NCBI GenBank assembly: GCA_039588915.1 | Contig: JBDGYV010000004.1 | Span: 2,632 to 66,631 of the forward strand | Source of the DNA: Gemmatimonadota bacterium | GTDB taxonomy: Bacteria > Gemmatimonadota > Gemmatimonadetes > JACCXV01 > JAHWKZ01 | Length of the DNA: 64,000 bases | Reading direction: 5' to 3' | Shown: positions 24,941 through 41,777 of the stretch, piece by piece | Numbering within the stretch: the stretch's first letter is position 1 | How the letters are laid out: the number at the start of each line of letters is the position of its first letter | Notes under the pieces: model-generated | What the model was told of the DNA's origin: nothing | Seen by the model: the letters and a program-made list of their open reading frames with translations, nothing else | The model's database searches: none | Program-made: the position numbers and the translations under genes

Positions 24941-24974
24941 ACGTCGTTAACGGTGAGGATAGAATGACGTAACG

Positions 24975-25215
24975 CTCTGATCGTTTCGAGGTGCCTGTCG
25001 GCGACGATGGTCGACGACGGGAGAATAGGGAATGCGGTGTGAATCCGCAGCGGCCCCGCCACTGTGAACGGCCCGCCCGACCGGGGCGGCCGAAGTCAGG
25101 AGACCTGCCTCGAAGCGTTCTCTCCGTTGTTATCCTTCGCGGGAGGGATGCGGCGAGAGGTCGGCTGGCCCGGTCTCCACCGCCTGTCCGCTTCCGCGGG
25201 CAGGCTTTTTTTTTG
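24975..25215 (+). ncRNA. Cobalamin (B12) riboswitch with intrinsic-terminator expression platform
   Basis: The core AAUAGGGAAUGCGGUGUGAAUCCGCAGCGGCCCCGCCACUGUGAACGG and the B12 box GAAGUCAGGAGACCUGCC are both present. The terminator hairpin follows, and the element sits immediately upstream of btuF-like transporter genes. Confidence 0.9.
25183..25214 (+). terminator. Rho-independent terminator (riboswitch OFF-state hairpin + T10)
   Basis: Hairpin cctgtccgc-ttcc-gcgggcagg followed by ten T residues. Confidence 0.8.
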
Positions 25216-31145: not shown

Positions 31146-33278
31146 GTGTTCAGGCCACCAGCCCGGGTCGTCTTGATTGCCGTGTTCTTTGCTTCGGTGG
31201 GTCGAGCCGTGGCCCAGGAGCAACCCGAGCCGACCCCGGCGGACACCGTGGCCCCGGCCGATTCGGTGGCCCTGGCTGACTCGCTTAACGTCGATCGCTG
31301 GATCTACCCCGAACCGATTACTGATCCGCGCATCACCTTGCTCGGCGACACGCTAGGCACAGCCGACACGCTAAAGCCCCGCTTCACTGAGCTGGCCGAG
31401 ATCTACCCCGATAGTCTGATCGATCCCTATACGTTGGCCCGACCCGGAGCTTGGCCGGCGTGGGTCCTGAGCGGCGACCAGCTCCTCGGGCGCGGGGCGT
31501 TCAGCCTGCTCGACGTGATCGAGAGCGAGGGATTCACCCTAGGCCAAGACATGGGTGGCAGTGGGCTCAGCACGTTCGTCGGCTCGTCGTTTGGATCGCA
31601 TACGAACATCGAGGTCATGATCGATGGGGTGCCGGTCGGCGAGCCATTGTCGGTGAGCTGGGACTTGCGGCGGATAGCGATCGAGGGGATCGCGAAGGTC
31701 GCCTGGTATCCGGGGCCGCAAAGCGCTGCGTGGGGAAGCAGCGCAACCGGTGGTGTTCTGGCGATCACTACGCGCCGAAGCCTGACGCCGAGCTCCCGGT
31801 CGATGCTGGCGTTCACCGCCGGCTCGTTCAAGGTCGAGACATTCAGCGGGAACTTCGGTCGATCGATCACCCGGCGCGGCGACGTGTTCTTGGGCGCCAA
31901 CTTCGATGCCACCGACGGATTCTTGCGGATCGGTGACTTCACCCGTAACCAGTTCGTCACCAAGCTCGGTTGGCGGATCGGCTCGAAGCACCGAGTCGAG
32001 GTGTCGCGGCTGAGCGACGGGTTCTCGGGGGACGCCAGTCGCACGAACCTGTCCGGTTTTCAGGATCAAGACGGCAGCGTGGTGCACTTGTTTTACGCCG
32101 GTAGCTGGGGCGACGTGGGAACCCGCTTTCATTATGCGCGATCGCGTCAAGAGTTCCGCGAGAACTTTGACTTTCGCGACGCATTTGGATTGGTGGGCAA
32201 GGGAGAACGAGAAGGGTTCCGCGGCACGATCGACCTCCGGCGGGGTCCGTTGCTGGTGTGGGCGGCTGGTGCGCAAGAGGAGCTTGACGTGGAGTCGCTG
32301 CATCCAGCATTCGTGCGGGTCGATCAGAGCAGTGTGTTCGAGCCGGTCGAGGATGATCCCGAAGCGCCAATGGTCGAGAACCCGCGGAGACAGATCGAGT
32401 GGGGCGGAGGTGTTGGGTGGGGCGAGCCCGACGGCCGGTACGCGGCCAATGCAGCGGTGCGCCGGTTGTCGTTTGGCGACGCCGCCGAGAGTGGGATGAC
32501 TTGGCAGTTCGAAGCGCTGGGTCGGCCGCATCCCGAGCTCACCGTTCGGTTAGCCGGTGGTAGAGCCGTGCGGCCGGCCAGCTTCGCCGGTCAGGCGCTG
32601 CTCGTGGCATTGGCCGCCGAGGGTGTGGAAATCCACCCCGGTAAGGTGGCGATGCCCGAGCAGCTCGAGGCGTGGAGCGGTGTGCGCGGCGAAGTCGCGT
32701 GGACGCGCGCCGGCTGGAAAGCGACCGGACGCGTGTTCACGGCCAACGGCGATGAGGCGTTCCTGTGGCTGCCGCCGACGGCGTGGTTGTACTTTGACCG
32801 GGCCGACTTCGACAATTCGCGACTAGCGGAGATCGGTTTCAACACCTTCGATGTCGTCGACCTGTCGGTGAACGGTTTCGAGGGTGAGGTCACCGGGCCG
32901 CTGCCATGGGGGTTGCGCGGGCGGTTTGTCGCGCGGCGCTTGGATACGACTGAAGATGAGTCGGGTGACCGAGTACCGTACGTGCCTAAATCCCAATTCT
33001 TGGGGCAGGCTCGTTATGCCCGCCGACTGTTCCCGAGCGGTGATCTGTTGTTGGAGGCCCGGGTAACCGGGAGGTTCAACGGTGAGCGGACGACGCTGAC
33101 CGGTGAGACCCTGTCCTCGTACTTCGTCACCGATCTGCTTGTGCAGGGAACGATCATCAATTTCACGATCTTTCTGTCGTTAAAGAACCTGACCAACGAG
33201 GTGTTTCGGACCGAGGAAGCGTTCTTTCTCCCTGGCCGCGAGGGGTTTTTCGGGATCAACTGGCGGTTCCGCAACTGA
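31146..33278 (+). CDS. Second TonB-dependent receptor-like outer-membrane protein
   Basis: GTG start with signal peptide VFRPPARVVLIAVFFASVGRAVAQ. Plug-like region (LLDVIESEGFTLGQD..IEVMIDGVPVG) and a long beta-barrel. Confidence 0.65.
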   Translation: MFRPPARVVLIAVFFASVGRAVAQEQPEPTPADTVAPADSVALADSLNVDRWIYPEPITDPRITLLGDTLGTADTLKPRFTELAEIYPDSLIDPYTLARPGAWPAWVLSGDQLLGRGAFSLLDVIESEGFTLGQDMGGSGLSTFVGSSFGSHTNIEVMIDGVPVGEPLSVSWDLRRIAIEGIAKVAWYPGPQSAAWGSSATGGVLAITTRRSLTPSSRSMLAFTAGSFKVETFSGNFGRSITRRGDVFLGANFDATDGFLRIGDFTRNQFVTKLGWRIGSKHRVEVSRLSDGFSGDASRTNLSGFQDQDGSVVHLFYAGSWGDVGTRFHYARSRQEFRENFDFRDAFGLVGKGEREGFRGTIDLRRGPLLVWAAGAQEELDVESLHPAFVRVDQSSVFEPVEDDPEAPMVENPRRQIEWGGGVGWGEPDGRYAANAAVRRLSFGDAAESGMTWQFEALGRPHPELTVRLAGGRAVRPASFAGQALLVALAAEGVEIHPGKVAMPEQLEAWSGVRGEVAWTRAGWKATGRVFTANGDEAFLWLPPTAWLYFDRADFDNSRLAEIGFNTFDVVDLSVNGFEGEVTGPLPWGLRGRFVARRLDTTEDESGDRVPYVPKSQFLGQARYARRLFPSGDLLLEARVTGRFNGERTTLTGETLSSYFVTDLLVQGTIINFTIFLSLKNLTNEVFRTEEAFFLPGREGFFGINWRFRN

Positions 33279-33378
33279 CCACCCGCAAGAGCAGCAGCTA
33301 CCCGGCTACGAGCCGGCTCGGTAGCTTGAAATGATCTCATCAGTGGAGACGACACCCAACTCAACGATAGGGTTACCA

Positions 33379-33702
33379 ATGCGAGCGCTTTTTGTAATCA
33401 CCGTGGGGATGATCTGCGTCCCACCCGTCGCCTGCGGTGGTGGTGGGGAGGAAGCCGACAGCGCCGCTGTCGCCGATACCGCGGCCTACACCGACTCAAC
33501 CGCCGAGCTACTCGAGAATGGCATGGACCAGGACTCGGTGCGAAACCTGCTCGGCGAACCGCGTACCCGAGTGACGATGGAGGGCGGTCAGGAGCGGTGG
33601 ACCTATTACAGCTATGATCCGCAGGGACAGATCGTCGCCCGCACGATGATCATCTTCGGCGATGACGCGACGGTGGCCGAGGTGTTTCACGGTCAACGGT
33701 AG
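33379..33702 (+). CDS. BamE/SmpA-OmlA-like small lipoprotein
   Basis: Lipobox VPPVAC and the GMDQDSVRNLLGEP..W.Y SmpA_OmlA motif. Confidence 0.5.
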   Translation: MRALFVITVGMICVPPVACGGGGEEADSAAVADTAAYTDSTAELLENGMDQDSVRNLLGEPRTRVTMEGGQERWTYYSYDPQGQIVARTMIIFGDDATVAEVFHGQR

Positions 33703-33720
33703 GCGTAGCCGCAGTACACG

Positions 33721-34449
33721 ATGGGACGCACGGTCTTCGCCTGGACTATCGGGGTCGTCTACACGCTCTTCTGGTCGTCGGTCGGAATCATCACCTGGCC
33801 ATTCAGTCCTCGCGGCGAGCTGTACCTGTCGCTTGCTCGCACGTGGTCGCGATGGATCCTAGCCACGCTTCGGATTCCGTTCAGCGTTGAGTCGCAGGCG
33901 ACGCTGGAGCCGGACCAACCGTACATCTTCATGTCCAATCACCGATCGATCTTCGACATCTTCGCGTTGTTTCTGGCGACCGAGCATTCGCTCAGGATGG
34001 TCGCCAAGCGAGTGCTGTTCTTTATCCCCATCTTTGGGTGGGCGATGTGGATGTGCCGCTTCATTCCGATCGACCGCAGCGATCGCGAGAAGGCGATCAA
34101 GAGCCTCGAGAATTCGGCCCGCAAGATCCGCGAGGGAGTCAGCGTGCTCGTGTTCCCGGAGGGCACGCGCGGTCCCGGCGAGCCGTTGTTGCCGTTCAAG
34201 AAGGGCAGCTTCATGATGGCGCTCAAGGCCGGCGTGCCAGTTGTCCCGGTCGTGGTTCTGGGGACCGAAGACGTCATGGGGGCTCGATCGCTACGCGTCG
34301 GGCATGGTGCGATCACGGTGCGGTTAGGAATGCCGATCTCGACCGCCGGCCGTGGCGCCCAGGCGCGTGATGATCTGATGCGGGAGGTGCGCGTCGCGAT
34401 GGAGGCGATGATGTCCGAGCCCGTTGCTCAGCCGACCAGTGATGAGTAA
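33721..34449 (+). CDS. plsC: 1-acyl-sn-glycerol-3-phosphate acyltransferase
   Basis: HX4D motif NHRSIFD and FPEGTRG motif. Confidence 0.85.
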   Translation: MGRTVFAWTIGVVYTLFWSSVGIITWPFSPRGELYLSLARTWSRWILATLRIPFSVESQATLEPDQPYIFMSNHRSIFDIFALFLATEHSLRMVAKRVLFFIPIFGWAMWMCRFIPIDRSDREKAIKSLENSARKIREGVSVLVFPEGTRGPGEPLLPFKKGSFMMALKAGVPVVPVVVLGTEDVMGARSLRVGHGAITVRLGMPISTAGRGAQARDDLMREVRVAMEAMMSEPVAQPTSDE

Positions 34450-34530
34450 GTTTGTAGGCGACTCGAGATCGTAATCGCGCTCGAGCTTCCTTTTAAATCG
34501 ACGTCCTGTGAGGCGCGGAAAGGGAGTGCC

Positions 34531-34593
34531 ATGATCGATAGAATCCAGTGCATCGTGTGTCTCCGCCAGGCGGAGACTTTTTTTTGCGCATGA
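34531..34593 (+). CDS. Putative 20-codon leader peptide (MIDRIQCIVCLRQAETFFCA) overlapping the carA start
   Basis: Strong SD AAGGGAG 4 nt upstream of the ATG. The TGA stop overlaps the carA ATG (ATGA). The ORF encloses the terminator hairpin and the T8 run. Confidence 0.4.
   Translation: MIDRIQCIVCLRQAETFFCA
34559..34585 (+). terminator. Intrinsic terminator/attenuator hairpin (gtctccgcc-a-ggcggagac) + T8 inside the carA leader
   Basis: A perfect 9-nt inverted repeat is immediately followed by TTTTTTTT, ending 5 nt before the carA ATG. Confidence 0.7.
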
Positions 34594-35717
34594 GCGCGGT
34601 GCGGCAACCCGCTCGGCTAGCGCTCGAGGACGGTTGGACGGCCCTCGGGGTAGCGGTCGGCGCGACCGGTACCGCGACCGGTGAGTGCGTGTTCAACACC
34701 TGCCTCTCAGGCTACGAGGAGGTGTTGACCGATCCTTCCTACACCGGTCAGTTGGTCGTCATGACGTATCCGCTGATCGGGAACTACGGCATCACCGTCG
34801 AAGACGGCGAGTCGGATGCGCCCCAGGTGGCGGGTTTCGTGATGCGTGAGTGCATCCAGGAGCCATCCAGCTGGCGGGCGGTTGAAACGCTGCCGTCGCA
34901 TCTGGAGCGCAACGATGTCGTCGCGATCGAGGGAATCGACACACGCGCGCTGACTCGTCACCTGCGGCAGTGGGGCGCACTGAGGGGCGTCATTTCGACC
35001 GAGCTCTTGGAGCCGGACGCCGCGGTCGCCCGGGCGGCTTCGATCGCGCCGATGGAAGGGCAGGATCTGACGGGGGAAGTGTCGTGCCCGGCGGCCACGG
35101 TCGAAGGGGACGGTGAGCTGCTGGTCGCTGCGTTCGACTTGGGCTTGAAGCAGAATATCGTGCGACGGTTGAGCGCCGGGGGTTGCCGGGTCGTTCGGTT
35201 GCCTGCCGACGCCACTGCGGATGTGGCGTTGGAACTCGCGCCCGATGGGCTCTTCGTCTCCAATGGTCCCGGTGATCCGGCGGCGGTCGGGTGTGCGATC
35301 GCCACGCTCAAAGCGTTGGCGTTGCGAGCACCCGAGCTGCCCACGTTTGGCATCTGCCTGGGACATCAGCTGTTGGCATTGGCCCATGGCGGCGAGACGT
35401 ACAAGCTCAAGTTTGGTCACCACGGTGGGAATCATCCGGTCCAGAAGTTGTCGACCGGGCGGATCGATATCACGTCGCACAACCACGGGTTCGCGGTGGC
35501 GGAAGCGCGTCACGGACGGAAGCGCTCGGTTGCTGGGGCTCCCGAGCTCGAGGTCACTCACGTCAACTTGTACGACGACACTGTCGAGGGCTTTCGACAT
35601 GTCGACCGGCCACTGTTCGCCGTGCAGTACCATCCCGAGGCGGCGCCCGGACCACACGATGCCTTCCACCATCTGAACGAGTTCATCGGCGCGATGCGAG
35701 CAGCCAAGCGGGCCTAG
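34590..35717 (+). CDS. carA: Carbamoyl-phosphate synthase small (glutaminase) subunit
   Basis: CPSase small-chain N-domain and GATase with GICLGHQ and the catalytic HH. ATG 34590 was chosen; the track's 34548 GTG extension runs through the terminator. Confidence 0.9.
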   Translation: MSAVRQPARLALEDGWTALGVAVGATGTATGECVFNTCLSGYEEVLTDPSYTGQLVVMTYPLIGNYGITVEDGESDAPQVAGFVMRECIQEPSSWRAVETLPSHLERNDVVAIEGIDTRALTRHLRQWGALRGVISTELLEPDAAVARAASIAPMEGQDLTGEVSCPAATVEGDGELLVAAFDLGLKQNIVRRLSAGGCRVVRLPADATADVALELAPDGLFVSNGPGDPAAVGCAIATLKALALRAPELPTFGICLGHQLLALAHGGETYKLKFGHHGGNHPVQKLSTGRIDITSHNHGFAVAEARHGRKRSVAGAPELEVTHVNLYDDTVEGFRHVDRPLFAVQYHPEAAPGPHDAFHHLNEFIGAMRAAKRA

Positions 35718-35720
35718 CCG

Positions 35721-38936
<3,216 letters not shown>

Positions 38937-39396: not shown

Positions 39397-39473
39397 GCGC
39401 CCGTAGCTCAGCTGGATAGAGCGACGGCCTCCGGAGCCGTAGGTCAGAGGTTCGAATCCTCTCGGGCGCACCA
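39397..39473 (+). tRNA. tRNA-Arg (anticodon CCG)
   Basis: Cloverleaf: acceptor gcgcccg/cgggcgc, D-arm gctcagctggatagagc, anticodon arm acggc-cuCCGga-gccgt, T-arm agagg-ttcgaat-cctct, discriminator A and encoded CCA. Confidence 0.85.
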
Positions 39474-40017: not shown

Positions 40018-41706
40018 ATGGCTCGTATTTCATTAGTTCCATCGATGGCCTTCACGGTCTTGCTTGCGGTTCTGGCCGGCTCCTGTACGGAGCCCGCCCG
40101 TGACGACGACTCGACCATGGACGAGTCGGCGACACCAGAGGCCGTCTCGCGCGTGCTCGGTCGGTACGTCACGGTGCCCCTCACTGCCGACCTGAGCGGC
40201 CTACCTGACCACGAACGGGCGATGATTCCCCTCCTCATCGAGGCCGTCGAGCCCATGAACTCTGCGTTTTGGATGGAAGCCTACGGCGACCCCGGCGACA
40301 TGCTCGGGGGCACGGGAGACGCCAACACGAAGCTGGCGCTAGAGGCGAACTTCGGACCTTGGGACCGCTTGGACGGCGATGCGCCCTTCCTGCCAGGCAT
40401 CGGGGAGAAGCCGGCGGGAGCAAACTTCTACCCGGCCGACATGACCCGCGAGGAATTCGAAGCCGCTGCCGAAGCCGCTCCGGACGGAGGCACTGCGCTA
40501 CGCAGCTTGTACACATTCGTTCGACGGGATGCCGCCGGAGAGTTGGAGGCCGTTCCGTACCACGTCGCGTTCGCCAGCGAGCACGCGCTCGCGGCCGAGA
40601 AGCTGCTGGCTGCCGCCGCGCTCACAACGGAGCCGGACGTCCGGGCGTACTTGGAGGCGCTATCGGCGGCACTCCTCACCGATGACTATCGAGCCAGCGA
40701 CCTCGCCTGGATGGACATGAAGGCGGGCGGACTCGACGTGGTCTTGGGCCCAATCGAGACGTACGAGGACCAGTTGTTCGGCCAGAAGGCGGCCCATGAG
40801 GGTTACGTGTTGGTCAAGGACCTGGTCTGGAGCGAACGACTCGGTCGCTATGCTACGATGCTGCCCGACATGCAGCGCGGCATCCCGGTTCCGGACGCTT
40901 ACAAGACGGAGACCCCCGGGTCGGATGCGGACCTGGGCGCGTACGATGTCGTGTACGTGGCGGGGCAGGCCAACGAGGGCGCAAAAACGATCGCCTTCAA
41001 CCTCCCCAATGACGAGGAAGTACAGCTCCAGAAGGGTACTCGGCGGGTACAGATGAAGAACGTGATGCGGGCGAAGTTCGACTACATCCTTAGCCCGCTC
41101 GCGGACGTGTTGATTGCCGAAGACCAGCGGTCGCTGGTGACGTTCGACGCGTTCTTCGATAACACCATGTTCCACGAAGTCGCCCACGGACTCGGGATCA
41201 AGAACACGATCACGGGGGCGGGTACCGTGCGGGAGGCGCTCCAGGCGCATTATTCGCCCCTGGAGGAGGGGAAGGCTGACGTGCTCGGTCTTTACTTCGT
41301 GACCCGGCTATACGATCAGGGTGAAGCCATGGACGGGACCTTGGAGGAGCATTACGTGACGTTTATGGCAAGCATCTTTCGCTCCATCCGGTTCGGCGCG
41401 TCCAGCGCGCACGGGCGAGCGAACATGATGCGTTTCAACTTTTTCAAGGAACGCGGGGCGTTCACGCGGGACCCGGCTTCGGGCACGTACCGCGTAAACA
41501 TCGATCGGATGCAGGAAGCCATGAACGACCTGACCGAGCTGATCCTCACCGTGCAGGGTGACGGCGACCACGAACGAGCCGGCGAGATCTTCGACGAGAT
41601 GGGCACGATCGGGAGCGAGCTGCAGTCGGACCTCGACCGCCTCGCCGAACTCGAGGTACCCGTCGACCTGCTCTTCGAACAGGGACCCGACGTGCTGGCC
41701 CGTTAG
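40018..41706 (+). CDS. Zn-metallopeptidase lipoprotein, dipeptidyl-peptidase III (M49)-like
   Basis: RBS GGAGG. Lipobox LAGSC. HEVAH zinc motif followed by the EEGKAD second ligand motif, in the spacing seen in M49-type enzymes. Confidence 0.5.
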   Translation: MARISLVPSMAFTVLLAVLAGSCTEPARDDDSTMDESATPEAVSRVLGRYVTVPLTADLSGLPDHERAMIPLLIEAVEPMNSAFWMEAYGDPGDMLGGTGDANTKLALEANFGPWDRLDGDAPFLPGIGEKPAGANFYPADMTREEFEAAAEAAPDGGTALRSLYTFVRRDAAGELEAVPYHVAFASEHALAAEKLLAAAALTTEPDVRAYLEALSAALLTDDYRASDLAWMDMKAGGLDVVLGPIETYEDQLFGQKAAHEGYVLVKDLVWSERLGRYATMLPDMQRGIPVPDAYKTETPGSDADLGAYDVVYVAGQANEGAKTIAFNLPNDEEVQLQKGTRRVQMKNVMRAKFDYILSPLADVLIAEDQRSLVTFDAFFDNTMFHEVAHGLGIKNTITGAGTVREALQAHYSPLEEGKADVLGLYFVTRLYDQGEAMDGTLEEHYVTFMASIFRSIRFGASSAHGRANMMRFNFFKERGAFTRDPASGTYRVNIDRMQEAMNDLTELILTVQGDGDHERAGEIFDEMGTIGSELQSDLDRLAELEVPVDLLFEQGPDVLAR

Positions 41707-41742
41707 GGCGTTGGGCCAGACAGCTTCTGAGGATTCAAAAAA

Positions 41743-41777
41743 AGAGGGGTCGCTGTTAGCGACCCCTCTTCTGTTTA
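41743..41777. terminator. Bidirectional intrinsic terminator (A-tract / agaggggtcgc-tgtt-gcgacccctct / T-rich)
   Basis: An 11-bp perfect stem is flanked by aaaaaa on one side and tctgttt on the other. Confidence 0.7.

What the first reader, a model, noticed from the sequence alone, without database searches (positions are those of the whole stretch)
34519..34593. Leader-peptide transcription attenuator in front of carAB (pyrBI-like logic)
A 20-codon ORF (MIDRIQCIVCLRQAETFFCA) has a strong SD and its TGA overlaps the carA ATG (ATGA). Inside it sits a perfect 9-bp hairpin followed by T8, 5 nt before carA. Ribosome progression through the leader would melt the terminator, so coupling of transcription and translation (for example UTP-dependent RNAP pausing in the U tract, as at E. 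coli pyrBI) could gate carAB expression. The U-tract itself encodes Phe-Phe. carAB feeds pyrimidine and arginine synthesis, so nucleotide-sensing attenuation is plausible. This arrangement for carA is not the canonical E. coli P1/P2 scheme.
Basis: seen in the sequence. Interest (0 to 1): 0.7.

Follow-up and report, generated by a model that had tools for sequence, protein, structure and literature searches.

The report
PyrR-gated leader-peptide attenuator before carAB
The short reading frame and terminator in front of carAB are real and conserved, but directly upstream lies an overlooked binding hairpin for the pyrimidine-sensing protein PyrR that covers the leader's ribosome-binding site, so this is most likely a PyrR-controlled, translation-dependent attenuator of a kind already proposed for Thermus.

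Summary
There is a 20-codon ORF (34531-34593), an 8-bp GC-rich hairpin (34559-34577), a T8 run (34578-34585), and a TGA that overlaps the carA ATG (34590).

Rfam RF00515 scores it 38.4 bits, below the family threshold of 54. Sites next to real pyrR genes in other phyla score 41-57. The hairpin's 3' strand is the leader's Shine-Dalgarno sequence.

The window comes from an uncultured Gemmatimonadota clade.
- Ten distinct relatives keep the box, leader ORF, terminator and ATGA/GTGA overlap. The box shows compensatory base changes. The leader peptide's N-terminal half is not conserved, but its start, frame and stop are.
- Two relatives lack the box and keep the ORF and terminator.
- Two lack the whole module.

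No RNA antiterminator exists. The same layout precedes pyrR in Rokubacteria, Acidobacteriota, Omnitrophota and Methylomirabilota, with variants in Nitrospirota and Binatia.

Best model: PyrR blocks leader translation, so the terminator forms. Without PyrR, the translating ribosome melts the terminator and hands over to carA.

The ribosome-versus-terminator logic is supported. UTP-dependent pausing as the sensor is not. No pyrR gene was found in the window, and its presence in the genome is untested.

Verdict: a new member of a known kind, of moderate interest.

The parts
33721..34449 (+). Upstream gene: PlsC-like 1-acylglycerol-3-phosphate acyltransferase. It is probably co-transcribed with the leader.
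   Evidence: PF01553 at 5e-34 and TIGR00530. The order TonB receptor - BamE - acyltransferase - carA - carB is conserved in all relatives. No sigma-70-like promoter was found in 33000-36000.
34485..34528 (+). PyrR-binding hairpin. The lower stem pairs 34485-34494 with 34518-34527. The internal loop is AAAU. The upper stem is CG(A)CGUC/GGCGCG. The terminal loop is CUGUGA (34506-34511).
   Evidence: RF00515 matches 34485-34586 at 38.4 bits, E 3e-4, with the consensus CCUUuUAAa..AGUCCaGaGAGGCU..aAAGG. 90% of cells are paired against 38-63% in slid controls. Three pairs covary: CG/UA/GU, UA/CG/UG and AU/CG/GC/GU. It is the only such site in the window with custom model R1 (65 bits; the next hit is 10 bits). 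Hairpin energy is -16.0 kcal/mol.
34520..34526 (+). Shine-Dalgarno sequence of the leader ORF (AAGGGAG). It lies entirely within the 3' strand of the PyrR hairpin.
   Evidence: Read from the sequence. The same relation (box 3' arm GGAAGG/AAGGAG, then a start codon 25-30 nt after the loop start) holds in all box-bearing relatives and in pyrR leaders of other phyla.
34531..34593 (+). Leader ORF of 20 codons (MIDRIQCIVCLRQAETFFCA*). It crosses the terminator, and its TGA overlaps the carA ATG.
   Evidence: There are 11 distinct versions of 20, 21 or 28 codons. The N-terminal half is not conserved, while the start, frame and ATGA/GTGA overlap always are. Length differences are multiples of 3. The chance of such an ORF is 0.08-0.14 per sequence.
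34559..34577 (+). Terminator stem-loop: GUCUCCGC / CAG / GCGGAGAC, 8 bp. The 3' arm contains GGAG.
   Evidence: -14.0 kcal/mol. The stem is invariant in 12 distinct relatives while the loop varies. It coexists with the PyrR hairpin in every minimum-free-energy fold, and no competing structure exists.
34578..34585 (+). U8 tract of the terminator. It encodes Phe-Phe in the leader frame.
   Evidence: It is one of only two T>=8 runs in the 64 kb and is invariant in relatives.
34590..35717 (+). carA, the carbamoyl-phosphate synthase small subunit. An alternative in-frame start is TTG 34584.
   Evidence: PF00988 and PF00117; TIGR01368 at 421 bits. The fourth base A, which makes the leader's TGA, is kept in all relatives although codon 2 varies (AGC, AAC, AAA, ATC, ACC, ACG, AAG).
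35721..38936 (+). carB, the carbamoyl-phosphate synthase large subunit. It is the second regulated gene.
   Evidence: CPSase_L_D2, D1 and D3 plus MGS domains.

Best explanation
This is a PyrR-responsive transcription attenuator that uses translation of a leader ORF, instead of an RNA antiterminator, to prevent termination.

Transcription probably reads in from the upstream bamE-plsC genes, because no promoter is visible. It produces, in order:
1. a PyrR-binding hairpin (34485-34528) whose 3' strand is the leader's Shine-Dalgarno sequence;
2. a 20-codon leader ORF;
3. inside that ORF, an intrinsic terminator (8-bp stem plus U8) that ends 4 nt before carA.

When uridine nucleotides are high, PyrR clamps the hairpin and the leader is not translated. 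The terminator then forms, and transcripts end at the U8 tract. Any read-through RNA keeps the carA start region folded.

When pyrimidines are low, PyrR is off. A ribosome starts on the leader, follows the polymerase and occupies the 5' arm of the terminator. The hairpin cannot form and the polymerase reads into carAB. The ribosome then stops at the UGA of AUGA and restarts on carA.

What is shown:
- all sequence elements, their conservation and the covariation in the box;
- the absence of an antiterminator;
- recurrence of the same layout in front of pyrR in other phyla.

What is inferred:
- PyrR binding and the presence of a pyrR gene in this genome;
- actual translation of the leader and termination at the U8 tract;
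- translational coupling to carA;
- the effector molecules, taken from B. subtilis PyrR.
For: 1. The PyrR box. RF00515 matches its full length at 38.4 bits, with the conserved loop and bulge letters. Boxes directly upstream of true pyrR genes in other phyla score 41-57 bits, mostly below the threshold as well. Covariation supports the hairpin. It is the single site in 64 kb, and it sits in front of a pyrimidine gene.
2. The SD lies inside the hairpin's 3' strand. The start codon follows 25-30 nt after the loop start. This is the same spacing at which pyrR's own start sits in L049, where the box lies directly on the RBS.
3. The leader ORF's start, frame and stop overlap are kept in 11 distinct versions although the peptide diverges. 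Length changes are +3, +3 and +24 nt. In L093 a +1 change in the loop is offset by +23 further on. The chance expectation is about 0.1 per lineage.
4. There is no antiterminator. The two hairpins coexist. With the 3' arm blocked, the 5' arm has no consistent partner. The terminator-forced fold is 9-13 kcal/mol better. RNAalifold finds only the two hairpins.
5. The same architecture precedes pyrR in four other loci:
   - L037, Rokubacteria: promoter, box, MDSPKASRASRPTPERGSFFCP*, U8-GCCCATGA;
   - L055, Acidoferrum;
   - L039, Omnitrophota;
   - L027, Methylomirabilota.
   Variants occur in L026, L045, L031, L014, L073 and L082.
6. carA has no SD of its own at normal spacing. The exception is L093, where the spacer is 27 nt and a GAGGGAG appears.
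7. Both long-T terminators in the window are regulatory. The other one belongs to the B12 riboswitch.
Against: - No pyrR gene is present in the window or in any Gemmatimonadota locus fetched. Its presence in the genome could not be tested.
- The Rfam score is below the gathering threshold (38.4 against 54).
- L093 and L094 keep the ORF and terminator without a box. L091, L092 and L096 lack the module altogether. PyrR gating is therefore not obligatory for this carA locus.
- Timing is tight. Only 54 nt separate the leader AUG from the end of U8, so a polymerase pause is needed, and no pause signal was identified.
- The box hairpin is stable on its own (-12.6 to -16.6 kcal/mol). The SD may be poorly accessible even without PyrR.
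- The terminator stem is invariant, so it offers no covariation evidence. This also hints at an extra, unexplained constraint.
- There are no transcript or ribosome data, and the transcription start is unknown.
Confidence: 0.65

Rival explanations
1. A pyrBI-like attenuator that works without PyrR. Coupling between the polymerase and the leader-translating ribosome is set by UTP-dependent polymerase pausing or by general translation capacity. The upstream hairpin is incidental or only modulatory.
For: The layout matches E. coli pyrL: a leader ORF through the attenuator, a U8-GCCC junction and the same reading phase. L093 and L094 keep the ORF, terminator and overlap with no PyrR box. A leader peptide with pyrimidine attenuation is reported for P. 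aeruginosa carAB (PMC4997734).
Against: There is no U-rich pause region or pause hairpin before the terminator in any relative, unlike E. coli pyrL. A conserved, covarying PyrR-type hairpin sits exactly on the leader's SD in 10 of 12 distinct leaders. The identical box-SD-ORF-terminator design stands in front of pyrR genes elsewhere.
Confidence: 0.1
2. PyrR acts only on translation, as in Mycobacterium. It represses the leader, and through the AUGA overlap it represses carA. The hairpin plus U8 is just the (leaky) terminator of the plsC transcript, and its efficiency is not regulated.
For: The SD lies inside the box hairpin. The AUGA/GUGA overlap and the A at position +4 are conserved. L049 shows the box working directly on an RBS. 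The terminator lies 110 nt downstream of the plsC stop.
Against: An unregulated strong terminator 4 nt before an essential biosynthetic operon with no promoter behind it would be costly. The ORF always crosses the terminator, and the spacing from start to stem is fixed at 28-31 nt. Canonical long-T terminators are otherwise almost absent from gene ends in this window.
Confidence: 0.12
3. A Bacillus-type PyrR attenuator. PyrR stabilises an anti-antiterminator, and an RNA antiterminator (not a ribosome) competes with the terminator. The small ORF is irrelevant.
For: RF00515, which was built on such attenuators, aligns over the whole 115-position model, including the terminator.
Against: The middle (antiterminator) part of the Rfam alignment has low posterior probability and few matches. 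Folding finds no alternative pairing for the terminator's 5' arm in any of 9 leaders, and the terminator is favoured by 9-13 kcal/mol. In a rough Bacillota control (L077) the alternative fold is favoured by 4.7 kcal/mol. This model would not explain conservation of the ORF.
Confidence: 0.05
4. An ordinary terminator of the upstream gene plus a chance small ORF, with no regulatory role.
For: In GC-rich DNA short open frames are common. The loose terminator scan is not enriched.
Against: The ORF start, frame and overlap are conserved across diverged sequences. The PyrR box covaries. The module recurs before pyrR in other phyla.
Confidence: 0.03

Closest known systems
Thermus strain ZO5 pyr operon leader (Van de Casteele et al. 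1997, J Bacteriol 179:3470). Cited from memory; the paper is not held in the library.
   Same: As I recall the paper, it has a PyrR-binding site at the start of a leader ORF, a terminator inside the ORF and no antiterminator. It proposes that a translating ribosome prevents terminator formation and that PyrR blocks this. The layout found here and in L037, L055, L039 and L027 fits that description.
   Different: There the module precedes pyrR-pyrB-pyrC and has its own promoter. Here it precedes carAB, lies behind plsC without a visible promoter, and the organism is a Gemmatimonadota. I could not compare the sequence directly with Thermus.
Bacillus subtilis pyr attenuators / Rfam RF00515 (PyrR binding site)
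   Same: The binding hairpin shares its sequence and structure motif (UUUAA bulge, GUCC.G.GAGGC loop region, AAAGG closing). A terminator follows, and the regulated gene is a pyrimidine gene. PyrR stabilises an upstream hairpin and thereby promotes termination (PMC4347634; PMC6524683).
   Different: No antiterminator is present. The hairpin carries an SD, and a leader ORF crosses the terminator. The score is below the family threshold.
Mycobacterium smegmatis PyrR-dependent translational repression (Fields and Switzer 2007; title seen in the reference list of PMC13328217; mechanism from memory)
   Same: The PyrR hairpin overlaps a ribosome-binding site, so binding blocks initiation. L049 in this data set shows that form.
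   Different: Here the repressed start belongs to a 20-codon leader that crosses a terminator, not to the structural gene.
E. coli pyrBI leader (pyrL) attenuator
   Same: The leader ORF runs through a hairpin plus U8 and stops next to the structural gene's start. It has the same U8-GCCC junction and reading phase (…GAFFCP… against …ETFFCA/P*). A ribosome prevents termination (established knowledge).
   Different: pyrL is 44 codons long, with a U-rich pause region and a pause hairpin upstream, and no protein-binding site. Here the leader has 20 codons, no U-rich segment and a PyrR box.
Pseudomonas aeruginosa carAB leader (Kwon et al. 1994, as cited in PMC4997734)
   Same: A leader peptide lies upstream of carA, and pyrimidine control possibly works by attenuation.
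   Different: No PyrR box is known there (from memory), and arginine control acts through ArgR at the promoter. The sequence was not compared.
E. coli carAB tandem promoters P1/P2
   Same: The same operon is regulated by pyrimidines.
   Different: E. coli controls initiation (reiterative transcription and the PepA/IHF/PyrH proteins at P1, ArgR at P2; established knowledge). It has no leader ORF and no terminator.

Membership tests
PyrR binding site (Rfam RF00515) | Hairpin with the conserved internal-loop and terminal-loop letters (CCUUUUAAA…GUCCaGaGAGGC…AAAGG) | tested here: met
   The cmscan alignment has high posterior probability over the hairpin. Covariation on 10 sequences supports it, as does the RNAalifold consensus.
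PyrR binding site (Rfam RF00515) | Score at or above the curated gathering threshold (54 bits) | tested here: not met
   38.4 bits. For calibration, boxes next to real pyrR genes in other phyla score 57.2, 43.9, 42.4 and 41.4 bits, and one scores below E 0.05.
PyrR binding site (Rfam RF00515) | Location in the 5' leader of a pyrimidine biosynthesis or uptake gene, followed by an intrinsic terminator | tested here: met
   carA and carB lie immediately downstream. The terminator is at 34559-34585.
PyrR binding site (Rfam RF00515) | A PyrR protein encoded in the same genome | not testable with these tools
   tblastn found no pyrR in the window or in the Gemmatimonadota loci held.
Bacillus-type PyrR attenuator (anti-antiterminator / antiterminator / terminator) | An antiterminator helix that shares bases with both the binding hairpin and the terminator's 5' arm | tested here: not met
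   Constrained folding of 9 leaders and the alignment fold show two independent hairpins.
Thermus-type PyrR / leader-peptide attenuator (definition recalled from Van de Casteele et al. 1997) | The PyrR box overlaps the SD or start of a leader ORF | tested here: met
   The SD at 34520-34526 lies inside the hairpin's 3' strand, and the ATG follows 3 nt after the hairpin. The same holds in relatives.
Thermus-type PyrR / leader-peptide attenuator (definition recalled from Van de Casteele et al. 1997) | The leader ORF spans the terminator hairpin, and no antiterminator exists | tested here: met
Thermus-type PyrR / leader-peptide attenuator (definition recalled from Van de Casteele et al. 1997) | Pyrimidine-dependent termination that requires PyrR and depends on leader translation | not testable with these tools
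   This needs transcript mapping and genetics or biochemistry.
E. coli pyrBI-type UTP-sensitive coupling attenuator | The leader ORF is translated through the attenuator hairpin | tested here: met
   The architecture is shared. Translation itself is inferred from conservation.
E. coli pyrBI-type UTP-sensitive coupling attenuator | A U-rich, UTP-sensitive pause region upstream of the attenuator | tested here: not met
   The longest T run is at most 3 in the 28-31 nt before the stem in all 10 leaders tested. E. coli pyrL has TTTT and TTTTT runs.
Classical amino-acid leader-peptide attenuator (trp/his type) | A run of codons for the regulated amino acid, plus alternative 2:3 and 3:4 hairpins | tested here: not met
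   There is no alternative hairpin. Arg codons number 1-4 per leader, which is about what GC-rich sequence gives. One CGC is fixed because it is part of the stem.

The most novel reading that the evidence does not exclude
The core of the device (leader ORF, terminator and AUGA overlap) may be a working coupling sensor that does not need PyrR. PyrR gating would then be a removable add-on.

On this reading, the box-less relatives L093 and L094 are natural pyrBI-like attenuators outside the Proteobacteria. E. coli pyrL has the same U8-GCCC junction and reading phase, and could be a descendant of this widespread PyrR/leader design that lost the box.

A related possibility is that the invariant stem, with its fixed Arg codon CGC (often CGU-CUC-CGC) in the 5' arm, lets a ribosome stalled for lack of arginine mask the terminator. 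carAB would then have a second, arginine input.
Probability: 0.15. Interest if true: 0.6.

Novelty: new member of a known kind. Interest (0 to 1): 0.4.

Why it matters
carAB supplies carbamoyl phosphate for both pyrimidines and arginine, and nothing is known about its control in Gemmatimonadota, a major soil phylum that is largely uncultured.

The data show that a PyrR design proposed once for Thermus is widespread. In that design a ribosome on a leader ORF, rather than an RNA antiterminator, opposes the terminator. It occurs in Gemmatimonadota, Rokubacteria/Methylomirabilota, Acidobacteriota, Omnitrophota and Nitrospirota. The Firmicutes-trained Rfam model mostly misses it, because four of the six sites tested here, including the window's, score below its threshold.

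This gives annotators a concrete reason to retrain the family. It also gives experimenters a compact, 110-nt, two-level switch to test. The natural box-less and module-less variants in one clade offer a ready comparison set.

Tried and rejected
- **pyrR in the window and loci.** It found no pyrR in the window or in Gemmatimonadota loci, only in pyrR-pyrB-pyrC-carA operons of other phyla.
- **Metagenome scan for the box pattern.** It gave only two contigs (L081, L082). Their PyrB relatives are Acidobacteriota (Polarisedimenticolia), not Gemmatimonadota.
- **Taxon of the PyrR homologues.** I tried to read it from source names or to match accession series with the CarA MAGs. Both failed because names are truncated and the assemblies differ.
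- **Literature.**
  - The Thermus ZO5 paper, Turnbough and Switzer 2008, Bonner 2001 and Fields and Switzer 2007 are not held.
  - A search for PyrR together with Gemmatimonadetes, Gemmatimonadota or Gemmatimonas listed 10 of 1,089 hits, and none of those mentions PyrR.
- **Promoter scan.** No sigma-70-like site was found in 33000-36000. The same tool does find TTGACG-17-TATTGT just before the box in L037.
- **Antiterminator search.** Negative. The L077 and L039 controls are rough, because I specified the arms by hand.
- **Other weak Rfam hits.** asX2 and ncS011 on the minus strand, c-di-GMP-II inside plsC and sR1 are far below threshold. They are driven by the terminator palindrome or by chance.
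- **Arginine-codon enrichment in the leaders.** Not above expectation.
- **Frameshift idea.** The U8 tract is in phase (U UUU UUU) for a -1 slip, or a U insertion by the polymerase, that would fuse the leader to the carA frame (TTT TTT TTG CGC ATG is open). There is no downstream stimulatory structure, and L093 breaks the arrangement, so I did not pursue it.
Full report
**1. The observation**

The sequence at 34519-34593 is as described.
- GAAAGGGAG is followed by ATG 34531.
- A 20-codon frame (MIDRIQCIVCLRQAETFFCA) ends in TGA 34591-34593, which overlaps ATG 34590 of a 375-aa ORF.
- The inverted repeat GTCTCCGCC-A-GGCGGAGAC (34559-34577) is followed by T8 (34578-34585).

The downstream ORFs are carA (PF00988 and PF00117; TIGR01368 at 421 bits) and carB.

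The physical stem is 8 bp with a 3-nt loop, at -14.0 kcal/mol. Four bases, not five, separate T8 from the ATG.

A loose terminator scan alone is not enriched. However, T>=8 runs occur only twice in this 62% GC window. The other one is the terminator behind the cobalamin riboswitch.

**2.

An Rfam scan of the region matches RF00515, the PyrR binding site, over its whole length at 34485-34586. The score is 38.4 bits, E is 3e-4 to 2e-3, and the gathering score is 54.

The well-aligned parts are the terminator and a hairpin, CCUUUUAAAucGACGUCCUGUGAGGCGCGgAAAGG. The hairpin reproduces the family's conserved letters. The middle part, which holds the antiterminator in Firmicutes, aligns poorly.

The hairpin spans 34485-34528. 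Its 3' strand (34518-34527) contains the leader's Shine-Dalgarno sequence, and the leader ATG follows 3 nt later.

**3. Origin and relatives**

CarA places the window in a clade of uncultured Gemmatimonadota. About 75 protein clusters share at least 68% identity, followed by a gap down to 56%.

I collected the carA upstream region from 14 further distinct relatives. The gene order TonB-dependent receptor - BamE - PlsC-like acyltransferase - carA - carB is the same in all of them, and in the window.

- **Ten distinct leaders** carry box, leader ORF, terminator, T8 and an ATGA or GTGA overlap: window, L083, L085, L087, L001, L015, L089, L090, L095 and L100.
- **Two (L093, L094)** have no box but keep the ORF, terminator and overlap.
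- **Two (L091/L092, L096)** have no intergenic region at all. The acyltransferase stop overlaps the carA start.

**4. The box is a real structure**

On 10 sequences, 90% of cells pair, against 38-63% when the partners are slid. Three pairs change on both sides: CG/UA/GU, UA/CG/UG and AU/CG/GC/GU. RNAalifold finds the same result on the whole leader.

A covariance model of the hairpin finds one site in the window (65 bits). The next hit scores 10 bits.

In loci from other phyla, the model finds boxes directly upstream of pyrR genes. The pyrR gene of one such locus, L082, passes the PyrR equivalog model NF003549.

For calibration, RF00515 scores such bona fide sites at 57, 44, 42 and 41 bits. 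Scores below threshold are therefore normal outside the Firmicutes.

**5. The leader ORF is under selection for being open, not for its peptide**

The eleven distinct versions read:

| Leader peptide |
|---|
| MIDRIQCIVCLRQAETFFCA |
| MIDRIQCIVRLRQAETFFCE |
| MIDTTKCIVCLRQAETFFCR |
| MIDLVKCIVRLRQAETFFCA |
| (V)IHSPAFAPCLRSAETFFCP |
| MLVTSLRSIRRLRPAETFFCA |
| MKHPPGFVRRLRSAETFFCP |
| MRMHSPRTPACLRPAETFFCP |
| MSLASSHTSARLRPAETFFCP |
| (V)IALPPSPPGRLRCAETFFCP |
| MDRPQDDTDAGLRASGDFFLPASEGATR |

- Only the part encoded by the terminator is conserved.
- Lengths are 20, 21 or 28 codons.
- In L093, a 4-nt loop shifts the frame, and 23 extra bases restore the stop on the carA ATG.
- The base after the carA start is always A, which completes the TGA, while codon 2 varies over seven codons.
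- In shuffles of the 30-36 nt between box and terminator, an in-frame ATG or GTG near the SD with an open frame appears in 8-14% of cases. It is present in every lineage, at least four to six of which have unrelated sequence there.

**6. No antiterminator**

- In all nine box-bearing leaders tested, the minimum-energy fold contains both hairpins side by side.
- On the nascent transcript the 5' arm of the terminator is unpaired, or pairs weakly with different partners.
- With the 3' arm blocked, the best alternative is 9-13 kcal/mol worse than the terminator fold.
- The alignment fold shows only the two hairpins.
- In a rough Bacillota control (L077), the alternative fold is better than the terminator by 4.7 kcal/mol.

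By default the terminator should therefore form. The only conserved feature that could prevent this is a ribosome on the leader ORF.

**7. The same module elsewhere**

In front of pyrR in other phyla I find box (3' arm = SD), start codon, an ORF through the terminator, and a stop on or next to the pyrR start.

| Locus | Label | Leader and junction |
|---|---|---|
| L037 | Rokubacteria | Promoter TTGACG-17-TATTGT; MDSPKASRASRPTPERGSFFCP*; junction TTTTTTTTGCCCATGA, identical to L015 |
| L055 | Acidoferrum | Stop on GTGA |
| L026 | mislabelled | Stop on GTGA |
| L039 | Omnitrophota | Stop on ATGA |
| L027 | Methylomirabilota | TGAgTTG |
| L082 | Acidobacteriota-like | Stop 3 nt before the ATG |
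| L045, L031 | Omnitrophota, Nitrospirae | ORF passes through the terminator and stops later |
| L014, L009 | Nitrospirota | Stop in the terminator loop |
| L073 | Binatia | Stop just before the stem |

These leaders also lack an antiterminator.

In L049 the box sits on pyrR's own RBS, at the same loop-to-start spacing. The box therefore appears to be a device for controlling initiation at the start codon just behind it.

**8. Mechanism**

In B. subtilis, PyrR stabilises an upstream hairpin in response to uridine nucleotides and thereby favours termination (PMC4347634; PMC6524683).

Here, I infer that PyrR binding locks the SD, so the untranslated leader lets the terminator form. Without PyrR, a ribosome translates into the 5' arm, which lies 28 nt from the AUG. 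That prevents the hairpin and lets the polymerase enter carAB. The ribosome then terminates on the UGA of AUGA and reinitiates on carA.

carA has no SD at normal spacing. The GGAG of the terminator's 3' arm lies 15 nt before the ATG, or 9 nt before an in-frame TTG at 34584. Only L093, with its longer spacer, has its own GAGGGAG. The folded terminator would therefore also mask carA initiation.

From memory, this is the model proposed for the Thermus ZO5 pyr operon (Van de Casteele et al. 1997). I could not read that paper here.

**9. Weak points**

- No pyrR gene lies in the window or in the short Gemmatimonadota loci. I could not test the whole genomes.
- The L082 contig that shares the box type is Acidobacteriota-like.
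- The box-less L093 and L094 show that the ORF and terminator can persist without PyrR.
- The ribosome has only 54 nt in which to catch the polymerase. No pause signal is visible, and T runs before the stem are at most 3. E. coli pyrL has U-rich pause tracts.
- The box hairpin is stable by itself, at -12.6 to -16.6 kcal/mol.
- The terminator stem never varies in 12 distinct leaders, although the box covaries in the same sequences. I cannot explain this.
- No promoter was recognised. The leader is probably reached by transcription from bamE-plsC, and the attenuator would then also end the plsC message.

**10. Comparison and verdict**

The proposed sensor (UTP-dependent pausing as at pyrBI) lacks its defining upstream pause region. 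It is displaced by a conserved PyrR site on the leader's SD.

The element fails two membership tests. It does not reach the RF00515 threshold, and it has no antiterminator, so it is not a Bacillus-type attenuator. It fits the Thermus-type description.

Leader-peptide attenuation of carAB has a precedent in P. aeruginosa (PMC4997734).

I rate it a new member of a known kind. The added value is the evidence that this leader-ORF form of PyrR control is widespread and under-annotated.

Noticed in passing
window 24972-25214 (+) and genes to 33278: A cobalamin riboswitch (RF00174, 91 bits) is followed by a hairpin at 25184-25203 and a T9 run, the only other T>=8 run in the window. Downstream lie a BtuF-like binding protein, an ABC transporter and two TonB-dependent receptors. 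This looks like a B12-uptake operon under a terminator-type riboswitch.
   Followed up: partly
L101 100-234 (-) (E. coli pyrL) compared with window 34576-34593, L037 and L055: E. coli pyrL reads its attenuator U8 in the same phase (xxU UUU UUU UGC CCx, …GAFFCP…). It has the same U8-GCCC junction as the Gemmatimonadota and Rokubacteria leaders (…ETFFCP*, …GSFFCP*). This may be coincidence (1 in 3 for the phase) or shared ancestry.
   Followed up: partly
window 34578-34592: The U8 tract is in phase (U UUU UUU) for a -1 ribosomal slip, or a one-U insertion by the polymerase, that would join the leader frame to the carA frame (TTT TTT TTG CGC ATG has no stop). That would give an N-terminally extended CarA. 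No downstream stimulatory structure is present (read).
   Followed up: no
window 34559-34577 and the same element in L001, L015, L083-L095 and L100: The terminator stem GTCTCCGC/GCGGAGAC is invariant in 12 distinct leaders, although the loop varies and the PyrR hairpin covaries in the same sequences. This suggests a sequence-level constraint, such as GGAG acting as an SD for carA, or the fixed Arg codon CGC.
   Followed up: partly
L096 2960-3004; L091 and L092 about 3001: In these relatives the acyltransferase stop overlaps the carA start and there is no attenuator. L096 retains GCCGAGCCCGGCCGTCTCCG directly before ATGA. That sequence matches the L094 leader up to the 5' arm of the terminator, as if the loop, 3' arm and U8 had been deleted.
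   Followed up: partly
L093 2870-3003; L094 2935-3009: These two relatives have lost the PyrR box. L093 has a different hairpin, CCGACCG…CGGUUGG, in its place. Both keep the leader ORF, the terminator and the stop-start overlap.
   Followed up: partly
L049 2893-2935: In this Binatia locus the PyrR box lies directly on pyrR's own ribosome-binding site, with no terminator. This is the Mycobacterium-type translational form. The loop-to-start spacing is the same as for leader ORFs elsewhere.
   Followed up: partly
L026 (DASRWT010000086.1): This contig is labelled Candidatus Nitrosocosmicus, an archaeon. It carries a bacterial pyrR-pyrB-pyrC-carA operon with a leader nearly like that of Acidoferrum L055. 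It is probably mis-binned.
   Followed up: no
window 41737-41775: An 11-bp perfect palindrome, GAGGGGTCGC…GCGACCCCTC, is flanked by A7 on one side and a T-rich tail on the other. It looks like a two-way terminator after the M49-like peptidase gene at 40018-41706.
   Followed up: no
window 39397-39470 (+): A tRNA gene lies 460 nt downstream of carB.
   Followed up: no
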